52,903 bases of DNA, taken from positions 1 to 52,903 of IMG/VR virus record IMGVR_UViG_3300002026_002461; one strand, written 5' to 3'. Origin of the DNA: a virus. Taxonomy: Duplodnaviria > Caudoviricetes. The notes beneath the pieces are model-generated. The model was not told the DNA's origin and searched no databases. It saw only the letters and a program-made list of their open reading frames with translations. The number at the start of each line of letters is the position of its first letter. Positions within the stretch are counted from its first letter, which is position 1. Shown here piece after piece: positions 13,448-31,447 of the stretch. The position numbers were made by a program, and so were the translations under genes.

Positions 13448-13528
13448 AATTTCTCCTGCTTTATACAACACAACAAAACATAACTATTATACAAAATAGT
13501 CATGCTTTATATGTGAAAATTAACGACA

Positions 13529-15966: not shown

Positions 15967-18900
15967 CTATAATTCTACAAAACCAATATTGCGTTTTGTC
16001 TCATCGGACGAATTGGAATCAAAATCTAACTCTGGATGAGAAGTATAATGATTCTTATTTTTATTGGTAAGAACCTCTCTATCTCCTAGAACTAATTCCC
16101 CTGTAGTTCCATCCTCTTTCATTGAACCTTGGCTGTTTTCAAGTACAGCAACGAAATTATCTGTAGTCCACTCTAGACTTTCTGGATCGCCATGATGAAA
16201 ATAATAATTATATGCTGCCATTTCCATTACCAATGTCTCGATATCCCTTACCGTGAACCCTTTCATAGTGCATAATTCAGATATTTGGTCAAGGTCTAAA
16301 CTGTCAATAGCTGTTTGCAATTCTTGAGGAGTCATAAATCCCAAAGCCTTAACCCCTCTATTATTCATTCTTCGTCCAGTTGTTTTAAACGTTTCTTTCA
16401 TGCTTTTTGAATCAAAATTATCAATATTTATAACCAAATCTACACGACCTGAACGGAGCATTGGTCCAGTTATATTCTCTTTATGGTTTGTCGTCATAAC
16501 AACAAATATATTTCTCTTCATAAATTCATTTTCTTCTTGTCCATTCTGCAACCAAGACATAAATTCCGACTCTACCTGCTTATGGGCTTCATGCATACCA
16601 TCAGCGGAATTGTTTGTTGCCCCCATAGCCCTATCGTATTCATCTATTCTTACAATGACATGAGATGAATTCATAATGCTTTTTATAGAGTTTCTAGCTT
16701 GTTCTGATCCTTGTCCGACAAATTTTGAATGAACTGAATTTACATTGAAATCCCATATATCAAACCCTAACAAACCAGCCAAATGAACTGGAAACGCGGA
16801 GTTGTGAGTCACCGTATAATCACCTAATAAAAACTGCCGGTCACCATCAATCGTAAATCCATAATACTCGCCAAATCCGCACTTATCTATATTTATGCCG
16901 CATTTGACACCTATCTTTTGCGTATTGTCGTGTCCTTGTTTCCTAGGTAATTTTATCGGTATTTCTGACAAATTTCCTCCAAATGTAACAATATAACAAC
17001 GAACGCTATAATTCTTCGATTTTAATGTTTTTATTGAAGATGTCTCAAATACCTTAAAACCCAAACTTCTACCTAAATCCGCAACATTTTCGGCCAATCT
17101 TTTATTAATGTTATAAAATTGCAAAGATCCACCTCTTCCCATATAACCGTCTGAATCGATTAATCCAGCCAAAAGAGACAATCTTTTTTCTCTAGAATTA
17201 ATTAAATACAACTCTGGTATATGTTTGTTGTCAAAAACATCCATATACCGCAAACTATTCTTTATTGGATTTATAGAATATCCACTACCCTTCCTCTTGG
17301 AGAAATTAAGTACCAAAGCGTCTGTATCATTCTTTTTTTCATATCTAATAAAAAGTTTTTGTAACTTACTCCAATCTTCAAGCCACTCAAACGTCTCTAT
17401 ATCATTCGGGTGAACTGTTATTGCAGGCTTTTTAGCTGTACCGTCCCCAAGCCATAAACCGAACCAATACGGATCTATAGGTACATCCCGATTGTCAAAC
17501 TCGACTCCGGACTTCCACCCATAATGAGTTTTTTTCCACGTTTTACTCATTGAAAAATAATCATTTACGGAGACGTACACTGGAGAATCATTGTACTTGC
17601 CTTCTTTTTTTAACGACAAGATATGATTGCCATTGCAAATATAATTACATCCATTGTTTTGAACAACATTGTATAAGTTGTCCAACCCACTAGTCGTACT
17701 TAGAACATTTCTTGGTCTTGAATCTGGACCCATCAAAACATCACCAACAACTACATCTTCTACATTCTTTTTAGTCCCATTAAACATGACAATTTTCGTT
17801 CCCCGTCCAAGGCATTTACCAACGCCACCTTGACCATATAGAACCATAACATGCGGCATTCTCGTCTGTATCCGCTCTATCAAATCTTCATATTCGGATT
17901 CATCTTCTCCACGTTCTATCGCCTCAAGTGATTTATTTCTAAGACTTTTTACTTCATTGAAATCTCTTAGCAATTTCTTTACGTCCCAAGTGAAATTACT
18001 CGTTTCTGGACAAATATAATCTTCCCAAGGACGAGCGGTCAATTGAGTTAAACCGAATCCATCATCCATAAATTTTTGATTTATAGATTGTCTTATTTTT
18101 TTAATTGCGATAATTGAATTTATGTTTTTTGATCTAGGTGGATCTTCAGCGGCAAATAACGATGCAGCTAAAACATCTCCAGCCTCATTGTAGGTTAATC
18201 CGCATAATTTCCTAGCGATCTGTTCTTTTTGGTTTTTGCTAAAATCTATAATATATTTACTATTGGTATACAAATCCATAAAACTATCAATAAGATGATT
18301 AGCTTCATGATCGTCTACTGGACTTATTTCCAACGTTCTTATCTGAAAGGGAAGTTTAATTTTTACATTTGAAACCAAAAGAATTCTACAGCTATTTTTA
18401 GTGATTGGATCTCGAAAATTATCAAATAGGTTCAACGCTTTTGGTTCTATAATTCCTGCATTTTCTTTAGAACAAAAATCTAACGAAAAATCAACATTTT
18501 TTATTATCAACAATCTATCTTTGCAAGTCGCCCCTCTTATTAACTCACGTCTATTAATAAATCCATTAGATATCCTTTTTCTTTTTCCAGTTTGAGGATC
18601 TATTTTTGGAACAGGTATACCTAAGTCTTTATCTTCTTCTACTTCAATTGAACCATATATCAATTCATCTAAATAATTATAAGCGTTCCCATTGCCAGCT
18701 TGACCGTGTTGCAACTCAACAGCGTCTATATCATATGTATTATTATATAATTCTTCAATTTTGAATGAAGCCTTAAGAAGTTCATCAACTAAACATTGAC
18801 CCTCATGATTGACAACAAGATTCGTAATTCCAGTTAACGACAATTTAACTGCAATTTGCAATTCTCTTTTTAATTTCTGGAACGCTTCACTAGACGAAAC

Positions 18901-18996
18901 CAATGAAGAGAAAGTAAGATCCGAAGATTTCCTTGGGATAGTTCCACATCCATTCGCGTTATTATTTATTGGATTGCCATCGATTATTGTTGCCAT
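15967..18996 (-). CDS. AAA+ ATPase (Ycf46-like) with intein in Walker A
   Basis: GQGGVGK|intein|S, Walker B VRIDEYD, FMSWLQ, VVMTTN, arginine finger LRSGRVD; degenerate N-terminal AAA-like domain; start at ATG 18996 (AAGGA SD). Confidence 0.85.
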   Translation of the reverse strand: MATIIDGNPINNNANGCGTIPRKSSDLTFSSLVSSSEAFQKLKRELQIAVKLSLTGITNLVVNHEGQCLVDELLKASFKIEELYNNTYDIDAVELQHGQAGNGNAYNYLDELIYGSIEVEEDKDLGIPVPKIDPQTGKRKRISNGFINRRELIRGATCKDRLLIIKNVDFSLDFCSKENAGIIEPKALNLFDNFRDPITKNSCRILLVSNVKIKLPFQIRTLEISPVDDHEANHLIDSFMDLYTNSKYIIDFSKNQKEQIARKLCGLTYNEAGDVLAASLFAAEDPPRSKNINSIIAIKKIRQSINQKFMDDGFGLTQLTARPWEDYICPETSNFTWDVKKLLRDFNEVKSLRNKSLEAIERGEDESEYEDLIERIQTRMPHVMVLYGQGGVGKCLGRGTKIVMFNGTKKNVEDVVVGDVLMGPDSRPRNVLSTTSGLDNLYNVVQNNGCNYICNGNHILSLKKEGKYNDSPVYVSVNDYFSMSKTWKKTHYGWKSGVEFDNRDVPIDPYWFGLWLGDGTAKKPAITVHPNDIETFEWLEDWSKLQKLFIRYEKKNDTDALVLNFSKRKGSGYSINPIKNSLRYMDVFDNKHIPELYLINSREKRLSLLAGLIDSDGYMGRGGSLQFYNINKRLAENVADLGRSLGFKVFETSSIKTLKSKNYSVRCYIVTFGGNLSEIPIKLPRKQGHDNTQKIGVKCGINIDKCGFGEYYGFTIDGDRQFLLGDYTVTHNSAFPVHLAGLLGFDIWDFNVNSVHSKFVGQGSEQARNSIKSIMNSSHVIVRIDEYDRAMGATNNSADGMHEAHKQVESEFMSWLQNGQEENEFMKRNIFVVMTTNHKENITGPMLRSGRVDLVINIDNFDSKSMKETFKTTGRRMNNRGVKALGFMTPQELQTAIDSLDLDQISELCTMKGFTVRDIETLVMEMAAYNYYFHHGDPESLEWTTDNFVAVLENSQGSMKEDGTTGELVLGDREVLTNKNKNHYTSHPELDFDSNSSDETKRNIGFVEL
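16801..17814 (-). mobile_element. Intein (338 aa) with LAGLIDADG homing endonuclease
   Basis: K|CLGRGTK start; CNGNHIL block B; FGLWLGDG and LAGLIDSDG motifs; YYGFTID...VTHN|S end. Confidence 0.95.
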
Positions 18997-19047
18997 AGAG
19001 TTTCCTTTCAATAAAATATATCAAATATATTATACAAAATAAACGAA

Positions 19048-19978: not shown

Positions 19979-20049
19979 TTTTTCATCTCCTTTTTTGATT
20001 AAACATACGTTTATCTTTTTCTTTTCTGTATTACTACTGAAATTCCCTT

Positions 20050-20277
20050 TTATTTTTTTAATGTTTTTGAAGCATATTTTTGTGACCAATTACTTTTAGC
20101 TTGATCTTGATACTCTTCCATGCATGAATTTATCGCTTCTTGCGGCGAAATTCCAGCAGCAACCTTAGTCTTGTAACAATTCATCCAGCCTCTACTTTGA
20201 CCTTGCATCAACCCTTTTGCATCTTCGTAATACGCTTTCTTACGAAAAGAGTTAAGATTAAATGTTGTTGTTTTCAT
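20050..20277 (-). CDS. Small hypothetical protein with FNL..KKA leader
   Basis: MKTTTFNLNSFRKKAY; AAAAGG-N18-GAA motif immediately upstream. Confidence 0.6.
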   Translation of the reverse strand: MKTTTFNLNSFRKKAYYEDAKGLMQGQSRGWMNCYKTKVAAGISPQEAINSCMEEYQDQAKSNWSQKYASKTLKK

Positions 20278-20328
20278 ATTTATCATTTTCTTTAATTTTT
20301 TTCAATATCCTTTTTTATTATTCAAAAA

Positions 20329-21117
20329 TTAATCAACAAATTCTTCTAACACTTCCAAAGCAATTATATTTGAAAATAAAAACCGCTTAATTTGATTTCC
20401 TAAAATTTCCCAAGTGCTTCCTGCTATAGTCGGGGAAGAGTCAAAAGCTACAAAATAATCTCCACCGCTGCTAACTCTAATTGGATATCCCTCGCCAGGA
20501 GATGGTATTAATTTTCTAGGAGGCAAAACCTGTCCACTTTCTTTTGATTGATAAATAATCTGCATGGCTAAATTTCTCTGTTCTGCATATCTAACTTTAG
20601 CTCTATCATCTAAAACCATCATCGCTCTAGGATCTTGTTGTGTTTCGTTTCCGTCCTTATTTTCAGTTGGTGGATTTACAGCAGGCGGCGTAAGAGTAGG
20701 AGGAATTCCATCGGCTGTGGCTTCAGAATCAGGTGTAGGCATTGGAGTCATTTGAGCTTTTTTATTTAACCTATATTTTTTATCAGCTATTTCTAAACCA
20801 CCAATCTTATCGCCAATTCCAATATCATTCTTCTTAAACCATCCGCGATTAACTTCCAAAGCGTTTTTACAAGGTGAATTCGAACAAATCATTCGCGTAC
20901 TTAATGGAGACATCTCTGATATTTGCAGTATTACGCCATCATCATTTAAAAATGCGATATCTAATGGGATGTATGTTGACTTCATCCAGAATCTCAAATA
21001 ATCATCATGAGTAAATTTAAATAGCATTCCATTATTTTCGCCAAGAGACTTTCTATCCATAAGTCCTGTAGCTCTTTTAGAAGGTGTATCGGCTATTTCT
21101 ATTGATAATTTTTTCAT
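20329..21117 (-). CDS. DUF192 family protein fused to a WYL-like domain
   Basis: IEIADT..RATGLM.R...GMLF.F...FWMKSTYIPLDIAF...ALEVNRGWF is DUF192; C-terminal IIYQSK..RKLIP..FVAFD..IKRFLFSNI resembles WYL. Confidence 0.75.
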   Translation of the reverse strand: MKKLSIEIADTPSKRATGLMDRKSLGENNGMLFKFTHDDYLRFWMKSTYIPLDIAFLNDDGVILQISEMSPLSTRMICSNSPCKNALEVNRGWFKKNDIGIGDKIGGLEIADKKYRLNKKAQMTPMPTPDSEATADGIPPTLTPPAVNPPTENKDGNETQQDPRAMMVLDDRAKVRYAEQRNLAMQIIYQSKESGQVLPPRKLIPSPGEGYPIRVSSGGDYFVAFDSSPTIAGSTWEILGNQIKRFLFSNIIALEVLEEFVD

Positions 21118-21119
21118 TT

Positions 21120-21359
21120 TTATTGCCAAGCTATTCCGCTATCGTCTAATCCTTCTCTTAATTCTTCAGCGGCATCGTCATTCTCGCAATAAAAATGTAA
21201 TGCTCGTGAACCAATTTTATTTTTCATAGAGACTCCATATGGAACTTCTATTGTCGCGTCTCCGTTTTGGATTAAATTAAATTGTTTTTTGCTTAATTCG
21301 GCATAAATTTCGATTCCACTAGATTGTTTTTTATTTAATTCGACGTTTATTTCTTGCAT
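21120..21359 (-). CDS. Hypothetical protein
   Basis: 79-aa ORF tightly packed in the operon, AAGG SD. Confidence 0.6.
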   Translation of the reverse strand: MQEINVELNKKQSSGIEIYAELSKKQFNLIQNGDATIEVPYGVSMKNKIGSRALHFYCENDDAAEELREGLDDSGIAWQ

Positions 21360-21367
21360 ATTTAACC

Positions 21368-22150
21368 TTATGAGTTTTTCATTTGTTCCATCGCAGCTAT
21401 AGCATTATTTTTCATACTATCATAATTTTCAAATTCGCAAGGGATTCTAGTGTTTTTTGCATTTTGATTGTTTAAATACTCGCTCTCATAATATTTATCG
21501 ATATATAACTCCTGATTCCATTTGTCATAAGATATAGCAATCCAACACGTTCCCATAGCTTCGTCCATCATCTCAAACGAATGGTAATTGCTGGAAGTTT
21601 CAATCTTGCCATTTGGAAAATGCTCTTTCAAATCTTTCATTAATTTGGCTAACATAAGCATTTTATCAAGATCTGAAATATGTGCCGCCATAGTTAAAAG
21701 ATGAGAATATTCAGAATAAACGCCATCAGCAGCGATTCTATATCCTTTTTTACCTCTTTTATCCATACTTGCTAATATCTCAGTGTAGCTTTTTTCTTTT
21801 TTCTTGTTGAGGAAATTGTTACTTTCTCCCAATGACATTGTTTTTACTATTCCTTTTCCTCTTGAAGTAAATTTGACATTATCAGTTCCGCCACTTATAA
21901 GTCCTCTTGATTTAAGTCTTATAATAGTTTGATTATCTATATCCATTGATTTTATCTCAAATGTCTCATTATCTATCTTTTTAGCATTAAGCCATATATT
22001 CATTACATTGTCTGCGTCTGAATCAGTAACTCCGTATGACAATCCAGAAGCTTCTTTTGGCATATGATTGGCTAAAAAAGAAATATCAAGCAATCCATCG
22101 CTTTTTATTTTCTCTGTTGGTCCGTTAACTAATTGGATTGGTACAGGCAT
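21368..22150 (-). CDS. Hypothetical protein (possible winged-helix segment)
   Basis: Start reassigned to ATG 22150 (AAGGAG SD); RLKSRGLI...VKFTSRGK is wHTH-like; KEAS and RIAA motifs. Confidence 0.6.
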   Translation of the reverse strand: MPVPIQLVNGPTEKIKSDGLLDISFLANHMPKEASGLSYGVTDSDADNVMNIWLNAKKIDNETFEIKSMDIDNQTIIRLKSRGLISGGTDNVKFTSRGKGIVKTMSLGESNNFLNKKKEKSYTEILASMDKRGKKGYRIAADGVYSEYSHLLTMAAHISDLDKMLMLAKLMKDLKEHFPNGKIETSSNYHSFEMMDEAMGTCWIAISYDKWNQELYIDKYYESEYLNNQNAKNTRIPCEFENYDSMKNNAIAAMEQMKNS

Positions 22151-22151
22151 T

Positions 22152-22196
22152 TTATATCTCCTTAACTTTTCCATTTGCTGTTTTAACTAATTTCAT
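22152..22196 (-). pseudogene. 14-codon remnant of the array leader (MKLVKTANGKVKEI*)
   Basis: Own SD (AAGGAG) and ATG at 22196; matches the first 10 residues of the leader of the adjacent six genes. Confidence 0.7.
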
Positions 22197-22254
22197 TTAA
22201 TCTCCTTTAATGTTTTCTTAATCTTCCATAAACCAAAAGCATCAATTTTATAAG

Positions 22255-22608
22255 TTAGTTTAATTGTTGAATATAATTAGAAAGAGATGCTCCGTCTACA
22301 ATCCCACGAGACATTAAACCATTTGCAATTAAATCGTTCACCTCTTGTTCGGTAATATTCTTTTTGGTGATTGTGGCTTTTAACGATTTTAATATTTTAT
22401 TTTTTTGGTCAGGAGTCAATTGTGATACGCTTGTAAATAATTCTTGGGAAGCCTGTTGGACTTGTCCGGTATCTCCCATTTCAATTGTCCCCCTGCTTTG
22501 ATCAAATTGAGCCGATTTCATCCAACCCGCTTTTTTACCAATATTTGTCCATTCTTTCTTGGAAATCTTAATTGTTTGTTTACCACTTGCTGTTTTTACT
22601 AATTTCAT
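22255..22608 (-). CDS. Leader-array protein 6 (conserved leader + unique cargo)
   Basis: Start reassigned to ATG 22608 (AAGGAG SD): MKLVKTASGKQTIKISKKEWTNIGKKAGWMKSAQ. Confidence 0.85.
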   Translation of the reverse strand: MKLVKTASGKQTIKISKKEWTNIGKKAGWMKSAQFDQSRGTIEMGDTGQVQQASQELFTSVSQLTPDQKNKILKSLKATITKKNITEQEVNDLIANGLMSRGIVDGASLSNYIQQLN

Positions 22609-22621
22609 AACACTCCTTATT

Positions 22622-22921
22622 CTATTTAATGTTCCAAGAAACCCACTCTGCAAACTCGTCAATTCGCCGTTCTAGTTCTAATTTTACACTATGTTCCATA
22701 TTGCCTTGGAGAATTCCTTCAGCTAAAATTAAATATTGAATTTTCCCTTTAAGTTTGTTTTTTATAATATTTTGTTGTTGCTCTTCTTCAATACCCGCCC
22801 ACATTTCATCATCGGTTTGTTGTGCCTCTTTCATCCATCCAGCTTTCTTGCCGATATCTGTCCACTCTTTCTTGGATATCTTAATCGTTTGTTTTCCACT
22901 CGCTGTTTTTACTAATTTCAT
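22622..22921 (-). CDS. Leader-array protein 5
   Basis: MKLVKTASGKQTIKISKKEWTDIGKKAGWMKEAQ + unique ~65 aa; AAGGAG SD. Confidence 0.85.
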   Translation of the reverse strand: MKLVKTASGKQTIKISKKEWTDIGKKAGWMKEAQQTDDEMWAGIEEEQQQNIIKNKLKGKIQYLILAEGILQGNMEHSVKLELERRIDEFAEWVSWNIK

Positions 22922-22941
22922 TTCATTCTCCTTTTAACTTT

Positions 22942-23361
22942 TTAAAAATCTGTTGTTTCCGTCAAATCAGCCCTGTCTGTTGACAAATCATTACTAATAT
23001 TTTGTGGATTTGTAGCGTCATGAATTGTGTTTAGTGGGCTTATCCAAAACTGAAGTCTATCTTTTAAAGTCTTATAAATACGATATAGTTTTCTTGCATC
23101 TTCTTTGTTTATTTTTTTAGTTACAGACCCTATTCCAAGAGTATCGGAACCGACTTCTCTCGCAATAATTTCAAGCTTAATTCTACCCTCTTCAATTCCG
23201 TCATATAGCGACTGAGATATTGTTTGCACTTCAGATATCTCTTTTTGAACGTTTGCAAATTGAGCCTTTTTCATCCATCCCGCTTTTTTACCAATATCTG
23301 TCCACTCTTTCTTGGAAATCTTTATTGTTTGTTTACCACTTGCTGTTTTTATTAATTTCAT
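22942..23361 (-). CDS. Leader-array protein 4
   Basis: MKLIKTASGKQTIKISKKEWTDIGKKAGWMKKAQ + unique ~105 aa. Confidence 0.85.
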   Translation of the reverse strand: MKLIKTASGKQTIKISKKEWTDIGKKAGWMKKAQFANVQKEISEVQTISQSLYDGIEEGRIKLEIIAREVGSDTLGIGSVTKKINKEDARKLYRIYKTLKDRLQFWISPLNTIHDATNPQNISNDLSTDRADLTETTDF

Positions 23362-23371
23362 AATATTATCC

Positions 23372-23683
23372 TTATTCTCTTGGATTTAGAGCGTTTTTGA
23401 AATCGGGCTCAACTACTTGTTTTTTTGGGTTAGAACTTTCCTGTTTTATTCTCTCTATTATTTTATTAGTTATATTTGGTCCAATAAATGAAGAAATTAA
23501 ATCTATAAAATCTTGCCCATTTATATTTCTCAAGCCATCTTCAATCTGAGACAAATGAGAAGATAAGCTAATAGGTTCTGACATAGCCTCTTTCATCCAT
23601 CCAGCTTTTTTGCCGATATCTGTCCATTCTGATTTAGACATCTTAATTGTTTGTTTACCACTAGCTGTTTTTACTATCTTCAT
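23372..23683 (-). CDS. Leader-array protein 3
   Basis: MKIVKTASGKQTIKMSKSEWTDIGKKAGWMKEAM + unique ~70 aa; GGAGG SD. Confidence 0.85.
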   Translation of the reverse strand: MKIVKTASGKQTIKMSKSEWTDIGKKAGWMKEAMSEPISLSSHLSQIEDGLRNINGQDFIDLISSFIGPNITNKIIERIKQESSNPKKQVVEPDFKNALNPRE

Positions 23684-23733
23684 AATTCCCCTCCCGTTTT
23701 TAATATTGTTTCTCGCTCAGCATTCAATAAATA

Positions 23734-24090
23734 TTACATCAAATTAATAGTTACGCCATTATCGTTTACGTTCCAATCTTTAACACTATCCTCAGATACA
23801 TATATCATCCCCTGCTCTAGTTTAATGCCAAATGCACGATATTCTGACGGTTCACTATGAATCTTAAATTTAGTAAAAGTTCCATGTATACGAGGACTTG
23901 TTATAGTTATGGTATCTGTTGATCTTGCAGCAGCTTCTAATTTGCGAAAATTATCATCTCCCGTATATCCACCTCTATCTTCTATGGAGTCTCGAAGATC
24001 GTCCCAACCCGCTTTTTTACCAATAGAAGTCCATTCTTTCTTGGAAATCTTTATTGTTTGTTTTCCACTTGCAGTTTTAACTAATTTCAT
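23734..24090 (-). CDS. Leader-array protein 2
   Basis: MKLVKTASGKQTIKISKKEWTSIGKKAGW + unique ~89 aa; GAGG SD. Confidence 0.85.
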   Translation of the reverse strand: MKLVKTASGKQTIKISKKEWTSIGKKAGWDDLRDSIEDRGGYTGDDNFRKLEAAARSTDTITITSPRIHGTFTKFKIHSEPSEYRAFGIKLEQGMIYVSEDSVKDWNVNDNGVTINLM

Positions 24091-24126
24091 AAATATTACC
24101 TCGCCATTTAATTTGTTATTTTTTGA

Positions 24127-24396
24127 TTATTTCGATTTTACCATATGATCGGTCTTATATTTACATTTTGGACACCAATCCTCTCCCTGTTTCCCCACTG
24201 AAAATTTTCTTGGTTGCATTTCAACTTGAAACTTAGGTAGATTTTTTTTATTCCCGCACGTTTGACACACCCATTCTCTATCGGTCATCATTTCTACTTC
24301 TGCCATTTTCATCCAACCTGCTTTTTTACCGATTGATTGCCACTCTTTCTTTGACAAAACCAATTTCTGTTTCTTGTTTGCCGTCACAATTTTCAT
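24127..24396 (-). CDS. Leader-array protein 1 (Zn-ribbon cargo)
   Basis: MKIVTANKKQKLVLSKKEWQSIGKKAGWMKMAE + CQTC...CPKC; AAGGAG SD. Confidence 0.85.
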   Translation of the reverse strand: MKIVTANKKQKLVLSKKEWQSIGKKAGWMKMAEVEMMTDREWVCQTCGNKKNLPKFQVEMQPRKFSVGKQGEDWCPKCKYKTDHMVKSK

Positions 24397-24404
24397 AATT
24401 CTCC

Positions 24405-26846
24405 TTATTCTATTTTCTTAATCTTCCACAACCCGAACGCATCAAATAACTTGTCCGCCTCATATTTACCTTCATCCTTTATACTCTCTCTAGCAAACAA
24501 TAATTCAAAATCAGTATATTGACCTTTAAATAATCTTCCACCATATGATATCATTGTCCTTTCTAAATCTGCATCTATTTTCATTTTATACTTCAAAACC
24601 AACTTCAAAGCCCGAAGAATTAAAATTGGATTATTCTTGATAATAGCTTCTGATTTCAAAAGAGTCTCAACCGTCTTATTTCTCATGGCACCTTTGGCAA
24701 CCTTAAACGGGTCTAATATCTCTTTGCTGGAAACGTTATAAACAAACATATTTATAGTAAAATCTCTGTTTAATAAATCAATCATTATCTGATTGTTATT
24801 TTTAACTTTCAACAATGAAAGACGAGCTATCTCTTCCTTTTTATTGACCAAACTAAACTCAACCTTAACTCCTTTATAAGCAAAAGTTAATTTCGTGTTA
24901 ATTTCTGGAGTTATACCAAGAGTATCAGCCAATAATTGACCAACTTTTGCATTTTTAAAAGGAGACTCAGTGGAAAAATCAAGTTCCTCTACATCAGGTT
25001 TATCGTTTCCATACGCCCTTTCTCTAGCATATGTTCCTATAACACACAAATCGTCAATCCCATACTTTTTACTAATTAAAGCGGCTGCATTTACTATCTC
25101 TTCAACTACATTGACCCTATAACTGGAAAAACCAAGCAAATCTTCAACCAAATCAGCTAAAGCATCTGGAGCGGCTGACATTTGAAATTTTCCTTCTGCT
25201 TTTTTCAAAGTTCCAGAATCAACAGAAGGATCTACAATCCAAACTGCATAAATAGACTCATTTTGCTCTGTCTTGCCAAATTTAAAAGCCTTTATATTAA
25301 CGCCTTCGCACCCTACAGTCTTTCGTACAAATTGGTATATATCGCTCGTTATGATAAGTCTTGACGCTTTCATTTTGCCAGACAATATCCTATCCTTAAT
25401 GGTTTCCAAAATATTAAGCATTTTTGGCATATCCGATTCAGAATCAATTTGAGCAAACCTTTTGGCAGGATGAGTATTCGATAAATCTTGCGTCATATCA
25501 TCCCACAATTGCGGCTTAAATCGTGGTTCAATCCATCTATAATAAAACCCCTTCAAGTCATAAGATGGATTATAACGGGGCTGCTCCCTTATCTCTGATT
25601 CTTCCGCACTGAATGATTCATCTCTATCATCCCATTTCATTACCCTATCGCCCATCCCTTGAAGCGTAGATCCATCAGAAATATCAAGATTGTTATACCA
25701 TCCGAACAATGTTGCTTCTTTTTTGATTTTAGAAGCCGTCTTTTCTAATGGAACCATAATAGGCTGAGGTCTACGTTCTTCCATTAATTGTTCTAATGTC
25801 TTATAACCTTGCGTACTGTCTCTATCTTTCGCCAATAATTCTTCATAAATCAACGAAGCATCTGGAACGCAATCCCCCGCCGTCTGTCTTCTAAGCTGTT
25901 CTTCTATAGTTTGATGTTCTTGAACCAACCCTTTCGCTAACGGCCATACAAACCCTCTCCCTAATCTGTTTTCAATAGGTTCTTTTTGGTTTTGTTGCAT
26001 CATCATACCCCAATCTGCTAAATTACCGTCACCAGTTGGAATTTTCCCTCCTCTCCCTGACAAATCAGATCCTGTCGGTTTATTCCTAATATGGCTTGGG
26101 ATATAATTCATATATTGAGCAAAACGATACCAGCTTTTATTCTTGGCTAAAGTAGAATTACCTACTGGCATTTCTTCTCCAGACTCATCCTTATACTTCT
26201 GTTTAATTATTGGCATAGTTGAATTAACGAAATCGCGTTCTCTACCCTCAGAAGCCCCCTCGTCGCCGCCTCTCGAATGTTCCCACTCATGAATTATTGT
26301 TGCGCCTAATTCTAGCATAGTTAACATATCCCATAACAGTTGAGGGTTTGAAATAGGAACGCCTGCATTTTCGGCAGCTGCTATTAATTGTTTCATATTT
26401 TCTTCAGTTGAGCTTTTAACTTTGTTCATATTAACGCCAAGCACTTCACTCTTGCCTGCATTTATACGATCCCACAATTGTTTTATCTCGTCTTTGATTT
26501 TTTCATTGTCTTCTTCAGAACCGTCTTTCGGATAGGCAACCATCATCCCGTTCTCTTCTTTAACTTCGTAATTTCTTTGTTCCAACTGTTTTTTAAGTTC
26601 ATTTGTTTTAACTTCTTCAACTAATGCTGGAATATAAACTCCGTAAGCTCCTTGATTAGAAAAGTCAAAAATATAAGAAACTTCCCTAGATATATCTGGG
26701 GCGTACTGATAAACAAGATTCATTACATCTGATGTTCTTGAAAAAGAAGATGATAGTTGTGAAAAGTCAACGCCTCCACCGGGTCTATATGTTGGCATAG
26801 TTCCTTGATAATACTCTGAATAATTACTTTGAGATTTCTTTTGCAT
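24405..26846 (-). CDS. Multidomain protein: HExxH domain + C-terminal CCA-adding/poly(A) polymerase-like nucleotidyltransferase
   Basis: IIHEWEH; C-terminal VIGTYARE..EELDF, DLLNRDFTINM, NPILILRAL match diverged class II nucleotidyltransferase motifs. Confidence 0.7.
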   Translation of the reverse strand: MQKKSQSNYSEYYQGTMPTYRPGGGVDFSQLSSSFSRTSDVMNLVYQYAPDISREVSYIFDFSNQGAYGVYIPALVEEVKTNELKKQLEQRNYEVKEENGMMVAYPKDGSEEDNEKIKDEIKQLWDRINAGKSEVLGVNMNKVKSSTEENMKQLIAAAENAGVPISNPQLLWDMLTMLELGATIIHEWEHSRGGDEGASEGRERDFVNSTMPIIKQKYKDESGEEMPVGNSTLAKNKSWYRFAQYMNYIPSHIRNKPTGSDLSGRGGKIPTGDGNLADWGMMMQQNQKEPIENRLGRGFVWPLAKGLVQEHQTIEEQLRRQTAGDCVPDASLIYEELLAKDRDSTQGYKTLEQLMEERRPQPIMVPLEKTASKIKKEATLFGWYNNLDISDGSTLQGMGDRVMKWDDRDESFSAEESEIREQPRYNPSYDLKGFYYRWIEPRFKPQLWDDMTQDLSNTHPAKRFAQIDSESDMPKMLNILETIKDRILSGKMKASRLIITSDIYQFVRKTVGCEGVNIKAFKFGKTEQNESIYAVWIVDPSVDSGTLKKAEGKFQMSAAPDALADLVEDLLGFSSYRVNVVEEIVNAAALISKKYGIDDLCVIGTYARERAYGNDKPDVEELDFSTESPFKNAKVGQLLADTLGITPEINTKLTFAYKGVKVEFSLVNKKEEIARLSLLKVKNNNQIMIDLLNRDFTINMFVYNVSSKEILDPFKVAKGAMRNKTVETLLKSEAIIKNNPILILRALKLVLKYKMKIDADLERTMISYGGRLFKGQYTDFELLFARESIKDEGKYEADKLFDAFGLWKIKKIE

Positions 26847-26890
26847 AATATTTATTTTCTATTTTTCCTTTGAATTATCCTTTGAAACAA

Positions 26891-26924
26891 AAAAGCGACA
26901 AATTAATATTAATTTGTCGCTTTT
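26891..26924. terminator. Intrinsic terminator (perfect palindrome)
   Basis: AAAAGCGACAAATTAAT-ATTAATTTGTCGCTTTT. Confidence 0.8.
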
Positions 26925-26939
26925 GAAATATTTTTACTT

Positions 26940-27131
26940 TTACTGTTCGCTTATTCTAATTAAATCTTCGCCCAATTTTTTAATTTGCTCTTTTGTTAGT
27001 TCAATAATAATATTTGTCCAACCACTGTTAGATTTTTCACATTTTATATCCATTACCATACCAACACCAACAGTTTTTTCATACGATTTATCAACCAATC
27101 TAATCTGAAAACTATCTCCTACTACTTCCAT
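26940..27131 (-). CDS. Hypothetical protein
   Basis: 63 aa, GAGGAGG SD, abuts the upstream gene. Confidence 0.6.
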   Translation of the reverse strand: MEVVGDSFQIRLVDKSYEKTVGVGMVMDIKCEKSNSGWTNIIIELTKEQIKKLGEDLIRISEQ

Positions 27132-27824: not shown

Positions 27825-28880
27825 TTATTCTGTAACTATATTATTTATTATACAGAAATTTCGTATATAAACCGATGGCAAACCTACGTTTAATCCATAT
27901 TCTCCGTTTTGAGCAACAATAGAAGTTAATACACCTACAACCTTGCCGCTACTAACATTCACTATAGGACCGCCACTATTACCGTGAAAAACAGGTGCAT
28001 CAATGAAAAAATACTTTGGAGCACCACGATGTCCATATATTTGTTTGCCAATTGACCCAATATTACCAAATGAAACATTGTTCTCGAAACCATGTGGACT
28101 GCCTATCGTTAATATATCGTCGCCAACCTGCATTGAATCAACATCTAGTTTGAATGGAGCTAAATCTATATCTGCTTGTAAAATAGCAAGATCCAAAGAG
28201 CCATTTATTGCAATTACATTGGCGGGAACTTTCATCCCATTTTGAATTATGCTTATCTGCAATCTTTCAGAATAATCAATGGAATCAAAATTGTTTTCAA
28301 CGTTTTTGTCATATTTTATAACAACATGAGCACAAGTAACAAATACATTAGGAGCTACACAAAACGCCGCTCCAGTTTCTTTAATGGAACTTTGAGTGTC
28401 TATCGATTCAACTTTAAATGTTTTTTTCAATGACAAAGATACCGTTTGGGAACGATCTTGAGTTTGAGCTACTTTCTCAACCCATTTTATAGGAATCCCT
28501 TTCTGTTTCATTTTTTCACGGAATTCCTGAACTAAAGCGAAAGATGGGAACGTTTTAGAACCACCAGGCACTCTGACCTCCCACTTTTCAGTTTGATCAA
28601 TTAACGGTCTAGTCATTTTTGTCAATATTTCAAAATCCCTTTCACGACGTTTATATAAATCGCCTTCTTCTACAAATGAATGAGAAATATCTTCGCCTTT
28701 GCCCCAATTGCCGTTTGCATCGGGAATTTTATATGTGCTACCGTCAAGAATATCTTGAATTGTTGTTACATTATTGGTAGGTATTACAGATTTGTTAGTA
28801 GCTGGAGAAAGACCTGTGCCTGGAGCGATTATCTCTGGCATAAATGTTCTAGCGGTTTTTTGAATTCTAATGGTCCTCAT
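27825..28880 (-). CDS. Trypsin-like serine protease
   Basis: VTCAHVV (His), DLAIL (Asp), HGNSGGP (Ser); N-terminal extension with QKTAR and EKVAQ motifs. Confidence 0.9.
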   Translation of the reverse strand: MRTIRIQKTARTFMPEIIAPGTGLSPATNKSVIPTNNVTTIQDILDGSTYKIPDANGNWGKGEDISHSFVEEGDLYKRRERDFEILTKMTRPLIDQTEKWEVRVPGGSKTFPSFALVQEFREKMKQKGIPIKWVEKVAQTQDRSQTVSLSLKKTFKVESIDTQSSIKETGAAFCVAPNVFVTCAHVVIKYDKNVENNFDSIDYSERLQISIIQNGMKVPANVIAINGSLDLAILQADIDLAPFKLDVDSMQVGDDILTIGSPHGFENNVSFGNIGSIGKQIYGHRGAPKYFFIDAPVFHGNSGGPIVNVSSGKVVGVLTSIVAQNGEYGLNVGLPSVYIRNFCIINNIVTE

Positions 28881-28916
28881 GATGAATATATTTCAATTTA
28901 TCAATAGAAAAACCTT

Positions 28917-29912
28917 TTAATATTCTAAAAAGGCCAATCCGTCATCATTGTCTTTGTCTTCATCAATCAATGCAGACTCTTCATGTTCCACTTCTGGTGC
29001 ATCAATGAAATTTATTCCCCTCGCTTTAATTTGATCTGCTTCTGGAATAACAGAATTCTTCATAGATACGGATTGAGCACTACCCTCCCCACACGAAACA
29101 ACTGCCTTAAGACCCATTCTCTCCGATAAATCAAGTTTGCTTTCATCAATTGGCTCAGAATCCCTACTTTCTCTCTCTTCCTTATCCAACGCTTCCATTG
29201 CATCAATAGAAGCCTTTGTTGTTTCATTATCATTCATATCGCCAATTGCATTTCTCTTCATCTGTCCAGTTCGAGGTCCTTCGGAAGTCATTACAACAAC
29301 ATCTGAACCATCCTTCAACCCAACTGTAGAACTTTTAGTTATTTTCTTAGGAGTAATTGGATTTTTGACTTCTTCTTTTTGCTTAACACCTTTAACATTC
29401 TTAGATCCCTTTGGTCTTCCACGCTTGCCAACAACTTTTGATTCTTCAACAGACTCCGTACTGGTACAATTAGTCGTTGGAATGGTATCTGTAATTAATT
29501 TATCGAATTCACAATCTGTAATATATTCATTTTCATAAGCTTTGCGTTCAAAATCAACATCGGTCTCAAAACATTCATCAATATCCGCGACTGCTTGACA
29601 ATCTTCAATGCCATCATCAGAATCTACAAAAACGGTATCTTCTTTAGAAACGACTACAGGAACAATATCAAAAGGATTATCGCAACACACTTCAATTATT
29701 GGCTTTTTCTGTTCAATCGGCTCTTCGCTCTCGACAGTAATAAATTTAGCATTGACCAAACAATTGATTTCATTCTGCTTGTCTACCGTATCAATGTCAA
29801 TATGATATGCACAACTGCCAGAATCATTCTTGTTTGAATTTCCACGAACAATAATTCCTAGAGTGTTAAATGCAATCGTTGAATCAGTAATCCCCTTAAT
29901 CGTAACCTTCAT
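28917..29912 (-). CDS. Hypothetical protein with AT-hook-like KRGRPK
   Basis: 331 aa, AGGAG SD, TGTATAAT upstream. Confidence 0.65.
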   Translation of the reverse strand: MKVTIKGITDSTIAFNTLGIIVRGNSNKNDSGSCAYHIDIDTVDKQNEINCLVNAKFITVESEEPIEQKKPIIEVCCDNPFDIVPVVVSKEDTVFVDSDDGIEDCQAVADIDECFETDVDFERKAYENEYITDCEFDKLITDTIPTTNCTSTESVEESKVVGKRGRPKGSKNVKGVKQKEEVKNPITPKKITKSSTVGLKDGSDVVVMTSEGPRTGQMKRNAIGDMNDNETTKASIDAMEALDKEERESRDSEPIDESKLDLSERMGLKAVVSCGEGSAQSVSMKNSVIPEADQIKARGINFIDAPEVEHEESALIDEDKDNDDGLAFLEY

Positions 29913-29977
29913 ATTAAATCTCCTATAATGTAATTGATTTTATCTTCCTCAATTAATATTATACAGATTTTTCAACA

Positions 29978-30178
29978 TTAAAGTTCAAGGAAATCTAAAG
30001 AAATATTCTTGCGACCAAGTTCTTTTTTAATCTTAGCCATTAGATGAACTCTATCTTGACCTTTTATCTCGCACACATCAATAGTTTCTTGAAGTTCCTT
30101 ATTTGACTTCTCGAAATTGAATTCATCAAAATTTTTCAAGAACGAATCAGCAATCTTATCAATTCTTTCTCTATCTAA
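29978..30178 (-). CDS. Start-less 66-aa -1 frame extension of 30175..31374
   Basis: Open frame LDRERIDKIADSFLKNF...LDFLEL* begins right after an A9 run and fills the intergenic gap. Confidence 0.55.
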   Translation of the reverse strand, partial: LDRERIDKIADSFLKNFDEFNFEKSNKELQETIDVCEIKGQDRVHLMAKIKKELGRKNISLDFLEL

Positions 30179-31374
30179 TTTTTTTTTGTGTTAGATAATA
30201 CGACAATATCAAAATCCGTAGACGCGATTGGCTTACCAACAACATTCTCCCAACTTTCGGGAGCTTTGCGTTTTGGACGCTTACGAGAAACTTCACCAAC
30301 GAAACTAATTTCGCCACTTAAAAGTTTTTCTAAATCAAGACCATCGCTTTCAACATTTATATTATCATGCTTGGCAAGAATGGCATCCATAACCTGGCTG
30401 CGTACATCATCGTCGTCCATAGATTGAACAAGTTCCATTGATTGAGGATCTACGTTAACTGTACCAAGAACAATTCCATCCACGTCAGTCTGTTGCAAAT
30501 CAGAAACAATAAACGGATTATCTTCCATCAAATCCGGTTCCGATTCTTCCGCCATATTACCTTTTGGATAAAACTCATCTCCAAATAAACGAGCAACCAC
30601 CTGATCTGCCTTTACTTTGAACGATTCTGGCGTAAATCCCGAAACGTTTGCAAGATATCCATAACCTTCATCGATAACCATATTGTAAGCAGCTTCTTGC
30701 AATTCTTCAGGACTAAGTTGAGCACCAGACTGCGTAATGTCAAGAACCGCATACAAACCTTTACCTATCGGACTGTCAACGGGTCTAACTTCTGCAATCG
30801 ACAAAGGCTTACCACCATTATCGTCAACAACATCCTCGTCGGGAGAATCCATGACATCTAAATCAAAATCCTGATCTTCCAGAACGCCATCTTCATCTGC
30901 CCCCGCCCAAGCTGAATCATTAGTTCTATTCCATCTATCTCCACCTTCAAAATCCAACTCATCTGAAGCTATTACAACCTTCTTAGTAGCACTAGCCTTA
31001 AGATTATCCCACCAACGCTTATTTGATGGCGTTGATGATGCAGCTTCATATTTTTCCTTTTCCTGAGTTTTCATGCTTAAACGCTTTTCTTCAACCTTAT
31101 TTAAATCGCCAGAATAAGCCCCAGCATTTCTGTGCTTATGCAATCCACCCTTGGCATCATTAAGCCCTTTCTCAATAATTTTATCTGACCCGCCCAAACG
31201 TTTAGAGTCCAATAAGGCTTCCATTGTTACGTTTTTCTCAGGAACTCTATTGTTCTCAAGTTGTTTTTGAGTTATAGATGTAGGAGCTTCAGAATGTTCG
31301 CTCTTCAATCTCTGTTCTGTATGTTTATTACCTTCATTACTTTTTTCTGCAAATTTTTTCAAATTAAACTTCAT
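30175..31374 (-). CDS. Hypothetical protein with MKFNLKKFAE leader and E/Q-x-x-L repeats
   Basis: Likely start ATG 31374 (AAGGAG SD); repeats resemble those in the scaffold. Confidence 0.7.
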   Translation of the reverse strand: MKFNLKKFAEKSNEGNKHTEQRLKSEHSEAPTSITQKQLENNRVPEKNVTMEALLDSKRLGGSDKIIEKGLNDAKGGLHKHRNAGAYSGDLNKVEEKRLSMKTQEKEKYEAASSTPSNKRWWDNLKASATKKVVIASDELDFEGGDRWNRTNDSAWAGADEDGVLEDQDFDLDVMDSPDEDVVDDNGGKPLSIAEVRPVDSPIGKGLYAVLDITQSGAQLSPEELQEAAYNMVIDEGYGYLANVSGFTPESFKVKADQVVARLFGDEFYPKGNMAEESEPDLMEDNPFIVSDLQQTDVDGIVLGTVNVDPQSMELVQSMDDDDVRSQVMDAILAKHDNINVESDGLDLEKLLSGEISFVGEVSRKRPKRKAPESWENVVGKPIASTDFDIVVLSNTKKN

Positions 31375-31447
31375 AATTAACATCTCCTTATTATTGATAT
31401 GGACATCCTCAAACTTTTTTCTATAAACTAAATCAAAAATCCTTTAT

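What the first reader, a model, noticed from the sequence alone, without database searches (positions are those of the whole stretch)
22152..24396. Tandem array of genes sharing a ~33-aa N-terminal leader fused to unrelated cargo: candidate capsid-targeting/injected-effector cassette
Seen: six adjacent genes, each with its own SD, begin MK[LI][VI]KTASGKQTIK[IM]SKxEWxxIGKKAGW(MKxAQ); the 24396 copy is more diverged. The sequences then diverge completely into 55-105 aa domains (Zn ribbon, beta-rich, helical). A seventh copy survives as a 14-codon stub. Homology stops sharply at K-x-A, the motif that recurs through the prohead protease/scaffold. Known: T4 internal proteins (IPI-III) share a short N-terminal capsid-targeting sequence removed by the gp21 protease, their locus is hypervariable, and IPI* inhibits a restriction enzyme. 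Inference: this is an analogous but sequence-unrelated address-tag system that loads small variable effectors (e.g. anti-defence proteins) into the head. The ~100-bp repeats could drive cargo swapping, gain and loss.
Basis: partly seen in the sequence, partly recalled or inferred. Interest (0 to 1): 0.92.

Follow-up and report, generated by a model that had tools for sequence, protein, structure and literature searches.

The report
Shared address tag on phage proteins
Six neighbouring genes of an uncultured large phage start with the same, strongly conserved 33-residue mini-domain joined to unrelated small proteins, and many other metagenomic phage proteins carry the same domain, so it looks like an undescribed tag that sends varied accessory proteins to one place, possibly the phage head.

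Summary
Six minus-strand genes (22255-24396), each with its own ribosome-binding site, begin with the same 33-34 residues. A 14-codon stub follows at 22152-22196. The six cargos show no detectable similarity to one another.

The leader is kept by selection on the peptide. dN/dS is 0.01-0.15 while synonymous sites are near saturation. AlphaFold models it as a beta-hairpin plus helix followed by a flexible linker.

An exhaustive profile search finds 1,822 representative proteins with the leader. None turned up in 185,579 species' genomes. No Pfam, PHROG, NCBIfam or PDB family matches it, and no paper holds its motif strings. Arrays of up to nine such genes sit in different slots of a conserved backbone in related phages.

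The capsid-targeting and injection reading stays plausible but untested. One cargo is an ART-PolyVal ADP-ribosyltransferase. Against a cleaved signal, K-x-A is not universal and not enriched in the neighbouring protease. That protease is HtrA-like. In 27 of 239 proteins the module is repeated, and it can be C-terminal or internal.

The parts
22152..22196 (-). 14-codon stub: leader codons 1-10 fused to the conserved ribosome-binding region of the downstream gene. It is a deletion remnant and probably not a functional protein.
22213..22245 (-). 33-nt copy (88%) of the last codons of the 813-aa gene, lying just upstream of the stub. It is a duplicated junction between the 813-aa gene and a leader gene.
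   Evidence: (family D4)
22255..22608 (-). Leader gene 1, 117 aa. Leader is residues 1-34; cargo is 84 aa, cargo pI 5.2. The ORF list extends it to a TTG at 22662, but the repeat and the ribosome-binding site place the start at 22608.
22622..22921 (-). Leader gene 2, 99 aa. AlphaFold model: hairpin 2-5/11-14, helix 17-27, a low-confidence linker, then helical cargo. Its cargo has leader-bearing homologues elsewhere.
22942..23361 (-). Leader gene 3, 139 aa, cargo 106 aa. Its leader DNA is 94% identical to that of gene 1.
23372..23683 (-). Leader gene 4, 103 aa.
23734..24090 (-). Leader gene 5, 118 aa. It lacks the M-K-x-A ending; acidic residues follow G-W directly.
24127..24396 (-). Leader gene 6, 89 aa, with the diverged leader subtype (one residue shorter). 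Cargo is a four-cysteine zinc-ribbon-like domain, cargo pI 9.2, with only weak family hits.
24405..26846 (-). Upstream conserved 813-aa gene with a C-terminal poly(A) polymerase / tRNA nucleotidyltransferase-like head domain. It is probably co-transcribed with the array.
21368..22150 (-). Downstream conserved gene (starts M-P-V-P-I). It bounds the variable slot. Relatives have a 155-aa version.
26891..26924 (-). Terminator-like hairpin (15-pair stem) upstream of the 813-aa gene. No such site lies inside the array.

Best explanation
The first 30-33 residues form a small, self-folding, strongly basic module: a beta-hairpin, then a helix, then G-W. It works as a portable address. It binds one common receptor, so that many unrelated and rapidly exchanged small accessory proteins reach the same place.

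The most likely place is the inside of the assembling phage head. Cargos would then be packaged and enter the next host cell with the DNA as early effectors (host takeover, anti-defence), as T4 internal proteins and Alt do.

The tag probably works by binding, and it need not be cut off.

Shown: the modular architecture, selection on the peptide, the predicted fold, the phage-restricted spread, and the turnover of the genes. Inferred: the receptor, the packaging and the injection.
For: Modular tag plus cargo:
- The six window cargos fall in six clusters, and 143 leader proteins fall in 101 cargo clusters, 80 of them singletons.
- Some cargos belong to Pfam families defined on leaderless proteins: ART-PolyVal, Sigma70_r4, the DnaJ zinc domain, TMEM65 and DUF5754.

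Selection on the peptide:
- dN/dS is 0.01-0.15 among copies 1-5, with pS 0.18-0.76.
- In 12 of 12 pairs with homologous cargo, the leader (67-94% identical) is better conserved than the cargo (23-78%).

Fold:
- Hairpin 2-5/11-14 plus helix 17-27 at pLDDT 79-87, in the whole protein and in the leader alone. A low-confidence acidic linker follows.

Scale:
- 1,822 representative proteins at E<=0.001 and 372 at E<=1e-10, out of 1.84 billion.
- 224 of 239 held proteins begin with the module at residue 1-2.

Restriction to phage-like DNA:
- No relative among 62 pattern matches in the genomes of 185,579 species.

Accessory, fast-turnover loci:
- 205 modules in 79 metagenomic loci; 58 loci hold two or more, and arrays reach nine genes.
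- In the window's lineage the genes occupy at least five different slots of one conserved gene order, with 0-6 copies per slot.
- Leader-only remnants occur in other arrays.

Hints towards injection:
- One member joins the leader to an ART-PolyVal domain (35.7 bits, cut-off 31.2). Passages of PMC5512222 tie ARTs of polyvalent proteins to proteins predicted to be delivered with the DNA, and name T4 Alt as the packaged prototype.
- One 570-aa member has a sub-threshold ArdC-N match (E 0.0096).
- The tag is basic (median +7) while cargos are acidic (median -6). Passages of PMC3012670 report lysines of T4 internal proteins contacting packaged DNA.
Against: - No virion data exist, and no cultured phage carries the tag: tblastn of one leader against 50,697 phage records gave no match.
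- K31 (82%) and A33 (77%) are not universal. Window gene 5 lacks them.
- K-x-A is not enriched in the neighbouring proteins.
- The neighbouring protease is HtrA/DegP-like, not a known prohead protease family. It was found in 3 of 5 related records and not in the 161-kb one.
- 27 of 239 proteins carry two or three modules. One 850-aa GHKL-ATPase-like protein has it at the very C-terminus, and others have it internally. T4-type signals do not do this.
- In the 161-kb relative the array lies among small accessory genes and transposase-like genes, not next to recognisable head genes.
- Only 1 of 216 scanned members has an injection-associated domain above threshold.
Confidence: 0.4

Rival explanations
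1. A tether that works inside the infected cell. The module is a small binding domain that docks unrelated effector domains onto one conserved target, such as DNA or RNA (it is strongly basic) or a host or phage hub protein. There is no packaging.
For: - Predicted folded beta-beta-alpha module.
- Repeated modules in 27 of 239 proteins, including two modules only 13 residues apart (P0150), which suggests avidity.
- C-terminal and internal copies.
- Median charge +7.
- The invariant residues (S16, E/D19, W20, G24, G28, W29) look structural, while the lysines form the surface.
- Array probably co-transcribed with a nucleotidyltransferase-like gene.
Against: - A general nucleic-acid-binding module would be expected in cellular genomes too, but none was found.
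- There is a strong preference for starting exactly at residue 1: 224 of 239 proteins, and 187 of 205 modules start at M.
- No similarity to any known DNA-binding fold.
- The distant short form in record G005 loses K25/K26.
Confidence: 0.3
2. The conserved module is itself the active part, for example an inhibitor of one host factor. The variable C-terminal regions are fast-evolving modifiers or decoys, so these are paralogues with a conserved head and disposable tails.
For: - The leader is the best-conserved peptide shared between the window and the 161-kb relative: 82-85% identical, against 24-69% for the other shared proteins.
- Leader-only ORFs of 28-32 aa exist in other arrays.
Against: - Many cargos are well-formed independent domains (an ADP-ribosyltransferase, zinc ribbons, sigma region 4), and cargos reach 577 aa.
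- Homologous cargos are themselves conserved at 45-78% in 9 of 12 pairs.
- Six or more copies of the same active head in one operon would be redundant.
Confidence: 0.12
3. A timing or turnover tag. The module is recognised by a phage or host protease (the HtrA-like enzyme nearby, or a Lon/Clp-type protease), so that a whole class of early proteins is removed or activated together.
For: - An HtrA-like protease is a conserved core gene 3.4 kb from the array.
- A Lon-like ATP-dependent protease is encoded in the 161-kb relative.
- The module is N-terminal and followed by a flexible linker.
Against: - The HtrA-like gene was not found in two of five tag-bearing records, though both may be incomplete.
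- Degrons are usually short and unstructured, not a 30-residue fold with invariant tryptophans.
- Nothing tested here addresses stability.
Confidence: 0.08
4. A DNA- or mRNA-level cassette. The repeat is kept because it serves recombination or translation initiation, not because of the peptide.
For: - Copies 1 and 3 share 94% of 108 nt.
- Stubs and duplicated junctions show recombination at the repeat.
- The 5' coding sequence is A-rich.
Against: - Synonymous sites are close to saturated (pS up to 0.76) while amino acids are nearly invariant.
- DNA upstream of the ATG is not conserved.
- The same peptide is kept in genomes of 34-46% G+C.
Confidence: 0.05

Closest known systems
Capsid targeting sequence (CTS) of phage T4 internal proteins IPI-III and Alt
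   Same: A short conserved N-terminal sequence sits on otherwise unrelated proteins. The set of proteins is diverse and variable. Cargos act early after injection, and an ADP-ribosyltransferase is among them. Sources: passages of PMC3012670 and PMC5694885; here.
   Different: - The T4 CTS is 10-20 residues and is cut off by the gp21 prohead protease (PMC5694885 passages).
- Here the module is about 30 residues, is predicted to fold, can be repeated, internal or C-terminal, and has no universal cleavage motif.
- No gp23 or gp21 family match was found in these records, but the control genomes were silent too.
- Packaging is untested.
Polyvalent proteins and MuF-fused effectors of phages and conjugative elements (Iyer et al. 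2017, PMC5512222)
   Same: These are effectors predicted to travel with the DNA into the new host. They share domain classes: ART-PolyVal in one member and a weak ArdC-N-like match in another.
   Different: Polyvalent proteins join 2-15 domains in one polypeptide (abstract and passages). Here each small cargo is a separate gene with the same tag. No MuF, portal or MPTase-PolyVal domain was detected.
Encapsulation peptides of bacterial microcompartments and cargo-loading peptides of encapsulins (from my own knowledge, no call)
   Same: A short terminal peptide plus a flexible linker directs diverse cargo into a protein shell.
   Different: Those peptides are amphipathic helices or short linear motifs in cellular operons. 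This module is a hairpin plus helix, is found only on phage-like DNA, and has no identified shell partner. Not tested here.
N-terminal delivery markers of polymorphic toxins and secretion-system effectors such as MIX-type markers (from my own knowledge, no call)
   Same: A conserved N-terminal marker sits on very diverse C-terminal domains, and the genes lie in arrays and variable loci.
   Different: Those are bacterial, larger, and tied to a secretion apparatus. No Pfam or NCBIfam marker domain matched.

Membership tests
T4-type CTS / internal-protein system | Conserved short N-terminal sequence on otherwise unrelated proteins | tested here: met
   The leader is 67-94% identical among the six copies and the cargos fall in six separate clusters.
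T4-type CTS / internal-protein system | Belongs to a T4-like phage (gp23 capsid protein, gp21/S77 prohead protease) | tested here: inconclusive
   No PF07068 or PF03420 match in 4 records, but the control genomes were silent and the records are fragments. The large terminase is only about 26% identical to its nearest cultured relatives, Ma-LMM01-type phages.
T4-type CTS / internal-protein system | Tag removed by the prohead protease at a fixed motif | tested here: inconclusive
   K31 is 82% and A33 77% conserved in 133 leaders, and gene 5 lacks both. K-x-A is not enriched in neighbouring proteins. The neighbouring protease is HtrA-like. Cleavage itself cannot be tested here.
T4-type CTS / internal-protein system | Tag strictly N-terminal and single | tested here: not met
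   27 of 239 proteins have two or three modules. C-terminal and internal copies exist. 224 of 239 do start with it.
T4-type CTS / internal-protein system | Proteins present in the virion and injected | not testable with these tools
   No cultured carrier and no proteome data.
T4-type CTS / internal-protein system | Hypervariable locus among related phages | tested here: met
   There are 0-6 leader genes per slot, in at least five slots of a conserved gene order.
Polyvalent proteins (PMC5512222) | Two to fifteen disparate domains in one polypeptide | tested here: not met
   Window proteins are 89-139 aa with one cargo each. Only scattered Pfam matches in 216 scanned members.
Polyvalent proteins (PMC5512222) | Carries characteristic domains (ART-PolyVal, ArdC-N, MPTase) | tested here: inconclusive
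   ART-PolyVal above cut-off in 1 of 95. ArdC-N below cut-off in one 570-aa member. None in the six window genes.
Known small DNA-binding or dimerisation folds (AbrB-like, ribbon-helix-helix, zinc-finger-like, HTH) | Sequence or fold match to a described family | tested here: not met
   - No consistent Pfam, PHROG or NCBIfam hit.
- PDB profile search: best E 0.47.
- Foldseek on the leader model: 0 hits at E<=0.001.
- Atlas structure rows all under the bar.
- A 34-residue query has little power.

The most novel reading that the evidence does not exclude
A large group of uncultured big phages uses one self-folding 30-residue beta-beta-alpha address domain to load a hypervariable arsenal of small effector proteins into the virion for co-injection. 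The arsenal spans more than 1,800 distinct protein clusters, nearly all of unknown function. This would be a second, independently evolved and far larger counterpart of the T4 internal-protein system. It would also be a ready-made catalogue of candidate anti-defence and host-takeover proteins marked by a single searchable tag.
Probability: 0.3. Interest if true: 0.92.

Novelty: new variant of a known kind. Interest (0 to 1): 0.8.

Why it matters
If the tag marks proteins that share one destination, a single 33-residue profile picks out about 1,800 clusters of phage accessory proteins with almost no annotation. In some searches, only 13 family rows appeared for 216 scanned members.

That would be a large, pre-sorted pool in which to look for anti-defence and host-takeover functions.

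A self-folding tag that loads foreign proteins into a capsid would also be a useful engineering handle, as the T4 CTS has been (PMC5694885 passages).

Whatever its destination, it is a phage-restricted mini-domain with a clear birth-and-death dynamic. I found no description of it: no paper in the library holds two of its motif strings, and two topic searches found no description of it.

Tried and rejected
- Homodimer test of the 34-residue leader (complex prediction, two copies, alignment A4): score 0.11 against a mark of 0.42. No verdict either way.
- blastn of 20000-27000 against the phage collection: no match.
- tblastn of one leader against the same collection: no match.
- Cargo-only search with gene 2 residues 35-99: only its own near-identical copy came back. 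This did not show whether leaderless homologues exist.
- phmmer of the 570-aa ArdC-N-like member against PDB: nothing, so the ArdC likeness stays a weak lead.
- Atlas search on the 442-aa neighbour: no model and no hit.
- I first argued that the tag spans unrelated phage lineages and therefore cannot have a phage-encoded partner. I dropped this. The two ends of the 161-kb record G001 match genes at the flanks of the window's conserved block: a methyltransferase (66-69%) and a radical-SAM-like protein (45%). G001 may therefore be the remainder of a related genome. Leader divergence roughly tracks phage divergence (G003 leaders 58-67%; the distant short form in G005).
- The window's large terminase and Terminase_6N found nothing in G001 or G005. 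This is uninformative for fragments.
It was repeated with A2.
Full report
**What is in the window**

The window is a whole IMG/VR virus record of 52,903 bp. CheckV rates it at about 14% complete, so it is probably a piece of a much larger phage genome.

Between 22152 and 24396, on the minus strand, lie six genes of 89-139 codons. Each is preceded by an AGGAG-like ribosome-binding site. All six begin with the same 33-34 residues. The consensus is MKLVKTASGKQTIKISKKEWTDIGKKAGWMKxAQ. Seventeen columns are invariant, and identity to the first copy is 94, 91, 82, 82 and 67%.

The repeat finder sees this as six copies of a 108-nt unit. Upstream of the ATG only the ribosome-binding site is alike. After residue 34 the six proteins do not align. 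With the leader masked they fall into six separate blastp clusters.

The seventh copy is a 14-codon stub (22196 down to 22152). It is leader codons 1-10 joined directly to the conserved ribosome-binding region of the next gene. Alignment with relatives puts that gene's real start at 22150. Just upstream of the stub is an 88% copy of the last 33 nt of the 813-aa gene that heads the array. The stub therefore looks like the remnant of a duplicated junction between the 813-aa gene and a leader gene, followed by a deletion.

**The leader is kept as a peptide**

Among copies 1-5, synonymous differences over codons 2-29 are near saturation (pS 0.18-0.76). Non-synonymous differences are few (pN 0.01-0.09). 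Wherever dS can be computed, dN/dS is 0.01-0.15. This excludes recent gene conversion or a purely nucleic-acid function as the reason for the repeat.

In 12 of 12 pairs of leader proteins whose cargos are homologous, the leader (67-94% identical) is better conserved than the cargo (23-78%).

**Predicted structure**

AlphaFold2 was run on gene 2, using an alignment of 33 rows. It gives strands 2-5 and 11-14 and a helix 17-27, with block pLDDT of 82-85. Confidence then dips (58 for residues 31-40) before a helical cargo. The 34-residue leader alone gives the same elements at mean pLDDT 82.

Across 29 diverse leaders the invariant or nearly invariant residues are S16, W20, G24, G28 and W29, with E or D at position 19. 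I read these as structural: a helix cap, a small hydrophobic core and turns. That reading is an inference.

The module is basic (median charge +7). The 15 residues after it are rich in Asp and Glu. Cargos are mostly acidic: median charge -6, and 133 of 208 have pI below 5.

**How widespread it is**

- A word-seeded search with the six full proteins found 549 proteins at E<=0.01 among 1,746 candidates of 48-244 aa. Nearly all matched only over the leader. The search among longer proteins found 23.
- An exhaustive HMMER search used a 29-sequence leader profile against 1.84 billion representative proteins. It found 1,822 at E<=0.001 and 372 at E<=1e-10.
- Of the 239 proteins I held, 224 begin with the module at residue 1-2, 13 at residue 3-30 (probably mis-called starts), and 2 further in.
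- 143 of them fall into 101 cargo clusters, 80 of which are singletons.

Pfam scans covered 121 of those 143 proteins. I left out the window's own proteins and their near-identical copies (7), 13 close cargo homologues of proteins I kept, and 2 short fragments. A second scan covered 95 of the 96 further proteins; the one left out was a 33-aa leader-only record. Together they gave only 13 family rows, none with more than two members.

The hits include ART-PolyVal (P0185, 35.7 bits against a cut-off of 31.2). They also include sigma-70 region 4, the DnaJ zinc domain, TMEM65 and DUF5754.

Nothing in Pfam, PHROGs or NCBIfam matches the leader itself. A PDB profile search gave a best E of 0.47. Foldseek with the leader model gave no hit at E<=0.001. 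A scan of one genome for each of 185,579 bacterial and archaeal species found 62 pattern matches and no relative. The 50,697 deposited phage records gave no tblastn match. No paper in the library contains two of the leader's motif strings, and two topic searches found no description of it.

**Arrays and turnover**

In IMG/VR, ten loci carry the tag. Five of these records, scanned whole, hold 5, 2, 4, 5 and 8 matches.

The metagenome scan gave 79 loci (514 kb; a few overlap on the same contig) with 205 modules. Twenty-one loci have one module, 25 have two, 16 three, 10 four, 3 five, and 4 have seven to nine. Of the 205 modules, 187 start at a methionine. Away from contig ends, there are leader-only ORFs of 23-32 aa in L092, L102, L061/L089 and L116, and a frame-shifted remnant in L071/L094. 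Stubs like the one in the window are therefore a regular by-product.

Most long loci belong to the window's own lineage. That lineage shares one gene order: 288-172-1864-630-138-1151-442-334-AAA-324-78-DUF192-79-MPVPI-813-107-protease-331-402-terminase (numbers are protein lengths). Leader genes sit in at least five different gaps of this backbone:

- Between the 813-aa and MPVPI genes: window, six genes; L048, two; L093, one. G002 and G004 each have one unrelated leaderless small gene there, and G003 has none.
- Before the DUF192 gene: G002, one; G004, two.
- Between the 442-aa and 334-aa genes: G003, L093, L054, L055.
- Between the 1864-aa and 172-aa genes: L111, four.
- Beyond the 288-aa gene: L086.

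This is the pattern of accessory, quickly exchanged genes.

**What bears on function**

- The architecture is the one described for T4. There, a conserved capsid targeting sequence on otherwise diverse internal proteins brings them to the scaffolding core, and the set is diverse because it counters host restriction (passages of PMC3012670; PMC5694885).
- One leader protein carries an ADP-ribosyltransferase of the kind found in polyvalent proteins. Those proteins are predicted to enter the host with the DNA, and T4 Alt is the packaged, injected prototype (passages of PMC5512222).
- A 570-aa member has a weak ArdC-N-like match (E 0.0096, below the cut-off).
- The tag appears restricted to phage-like DNA.

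Against a T4-style cleaved signal:

- The M-K-x-A ending is common but not universal. Window gene 5 lacks it.
- K-x-A is at chance level in the neighbouring proteins.
- The neighbouring protease has a DegP/HtrA-like trypsin fold without a PDZ domain. That is not a recognised prohead protease family. It was found in 3 of 5 related records.
- The module is predicted to fold.
- 27 of 239 proteins carry it two or three times in one reading frame. P0150 has two modules 13 residues apart, and P0144 has three.
- A GHKL-ATPase-like protein of 850 aa in G001 has it as its last 22 residues.
- Proteins in G005 have it internally, and G005 also has a short form that lacks the first strand.

These features fit a binding domain. 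They do not rule out head loading by binding, without cleavage.

**Context**

A strong terminator-like hairpin lies just upstream of the 813-aa gene, and there is none inside the array. The array is therefore probably co-transcribed with that poly(A)-polymerase-like gene (inference).

I could not identify capsid, portal or scaffold genes in the window. PHROGs names only the large terminase, the protease and ribonucleotide reductase.

**Verdict**

The leader is an undescribed, strongly selected mini-domain of about 30 residues, restricted to phage-like DNA. It marks a very large and diverse set of small accessory proteins arranged in hypervariable arrays.

I give about 0.4 to the reading that it is an address that loads cargo into the virion for co-injection. 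I give about 0.3 to a tether that acts only inside the infected cell. Smaller odds go to the module itself being the effector, to a turnover tag, and to a nucleic-acid-level cassette.

Particle proteomics and simple biochemistry on the 33-mer would decide between them.

Noticed in passing
window 15967-19011 (-): The 1,014-aa AAA ATPase carries an intein: a Hint domain at residues 400-475 and a LAGLIDADG-type homing endonuclease at 598-679, ahead of the AAA domain. In G002 and G003 the best blastp alignment of the orthologue covers only about 370 residues, so the intein may be present in some relatives and absent in others.
   Followed up: no
window 10016-13471 (-): The 1,151-aa protein ends in a DUF559 / MTES_1575 endonuclease-like domain. 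The G002 and G004 orthologues align over only 386 residues at 82-83%, which suggests a mobile insertion or fusion.
   Followed up: no
G002 28423-31623 (orthologue of window 31448-33244): The large-terminase ORF in G002 is about 1,066 codons, against 598 in the window. It may hold an intein or other insertion.
   Followed up: no
window 27825-28880 (-): A DegP/HtrA-like serine protease domain (residues ~170-340) without a PDZ domain and with a 160-residue unknown N-terminal part. It is a conserved core gene between the terminase block and the 813-aa gene. Its substrate is unknown.
   Followed up: partly
window 21368-22150 (-): The gene downstream of the array is 260 aa in the window (268 as listed from an upstream ATG) but about 155 aa in G002, G004 and G003. 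The window copy has an extra C-terminal part of about 110 residues.
   Followed up: no
window 2120-7714 (-): A 1,864-aa conserved protein whose only family hit is a TFIIB-type zinc ribbon at residues 1179-1212.
   Followed up: no
P0025; contig outside the window: Another leader protein (125 aa) is recorded on a contig of 63,266 bp, the same longest-contig length as the window's own six proteins. The parent contig may hold a further full copy in the roughly 10 kb not included in this record.
   Followed up: no
G001 2850-4070 and 156265-157458: Genes near both ends of the 161-kb record G001 match genes at the two flanks of the window lineage's conserved block: a DNA methyltransferase (66-69%) and a radical-SAM-like protein (45%). 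G001 may be the remainder of a related genome, so CheckV's 87% completeness may be too high.
   Followed up: partly
L013 11593-11772, L016 2442-2621, P0132, P0143: A recurrent small cargo with a conserved cysteine-tryptophan / lysine-rich motif ending in P-N-C-V-P follows the leader in several records. In P0132 and P0143 it is followed by a longer conserved domain. Pfam DUF5754 matched two members, but I did not record which ones.
   Followed up: no
G001 60210-61382 and 70201-71893: From the look of their N-termini, these are transposase-like ORFs (390 aa; 428 aa plus 137 aa) flanking the region next to the four-gene leader array in G001. The labels come from my own reading, not from a family search.
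   Followed up: no
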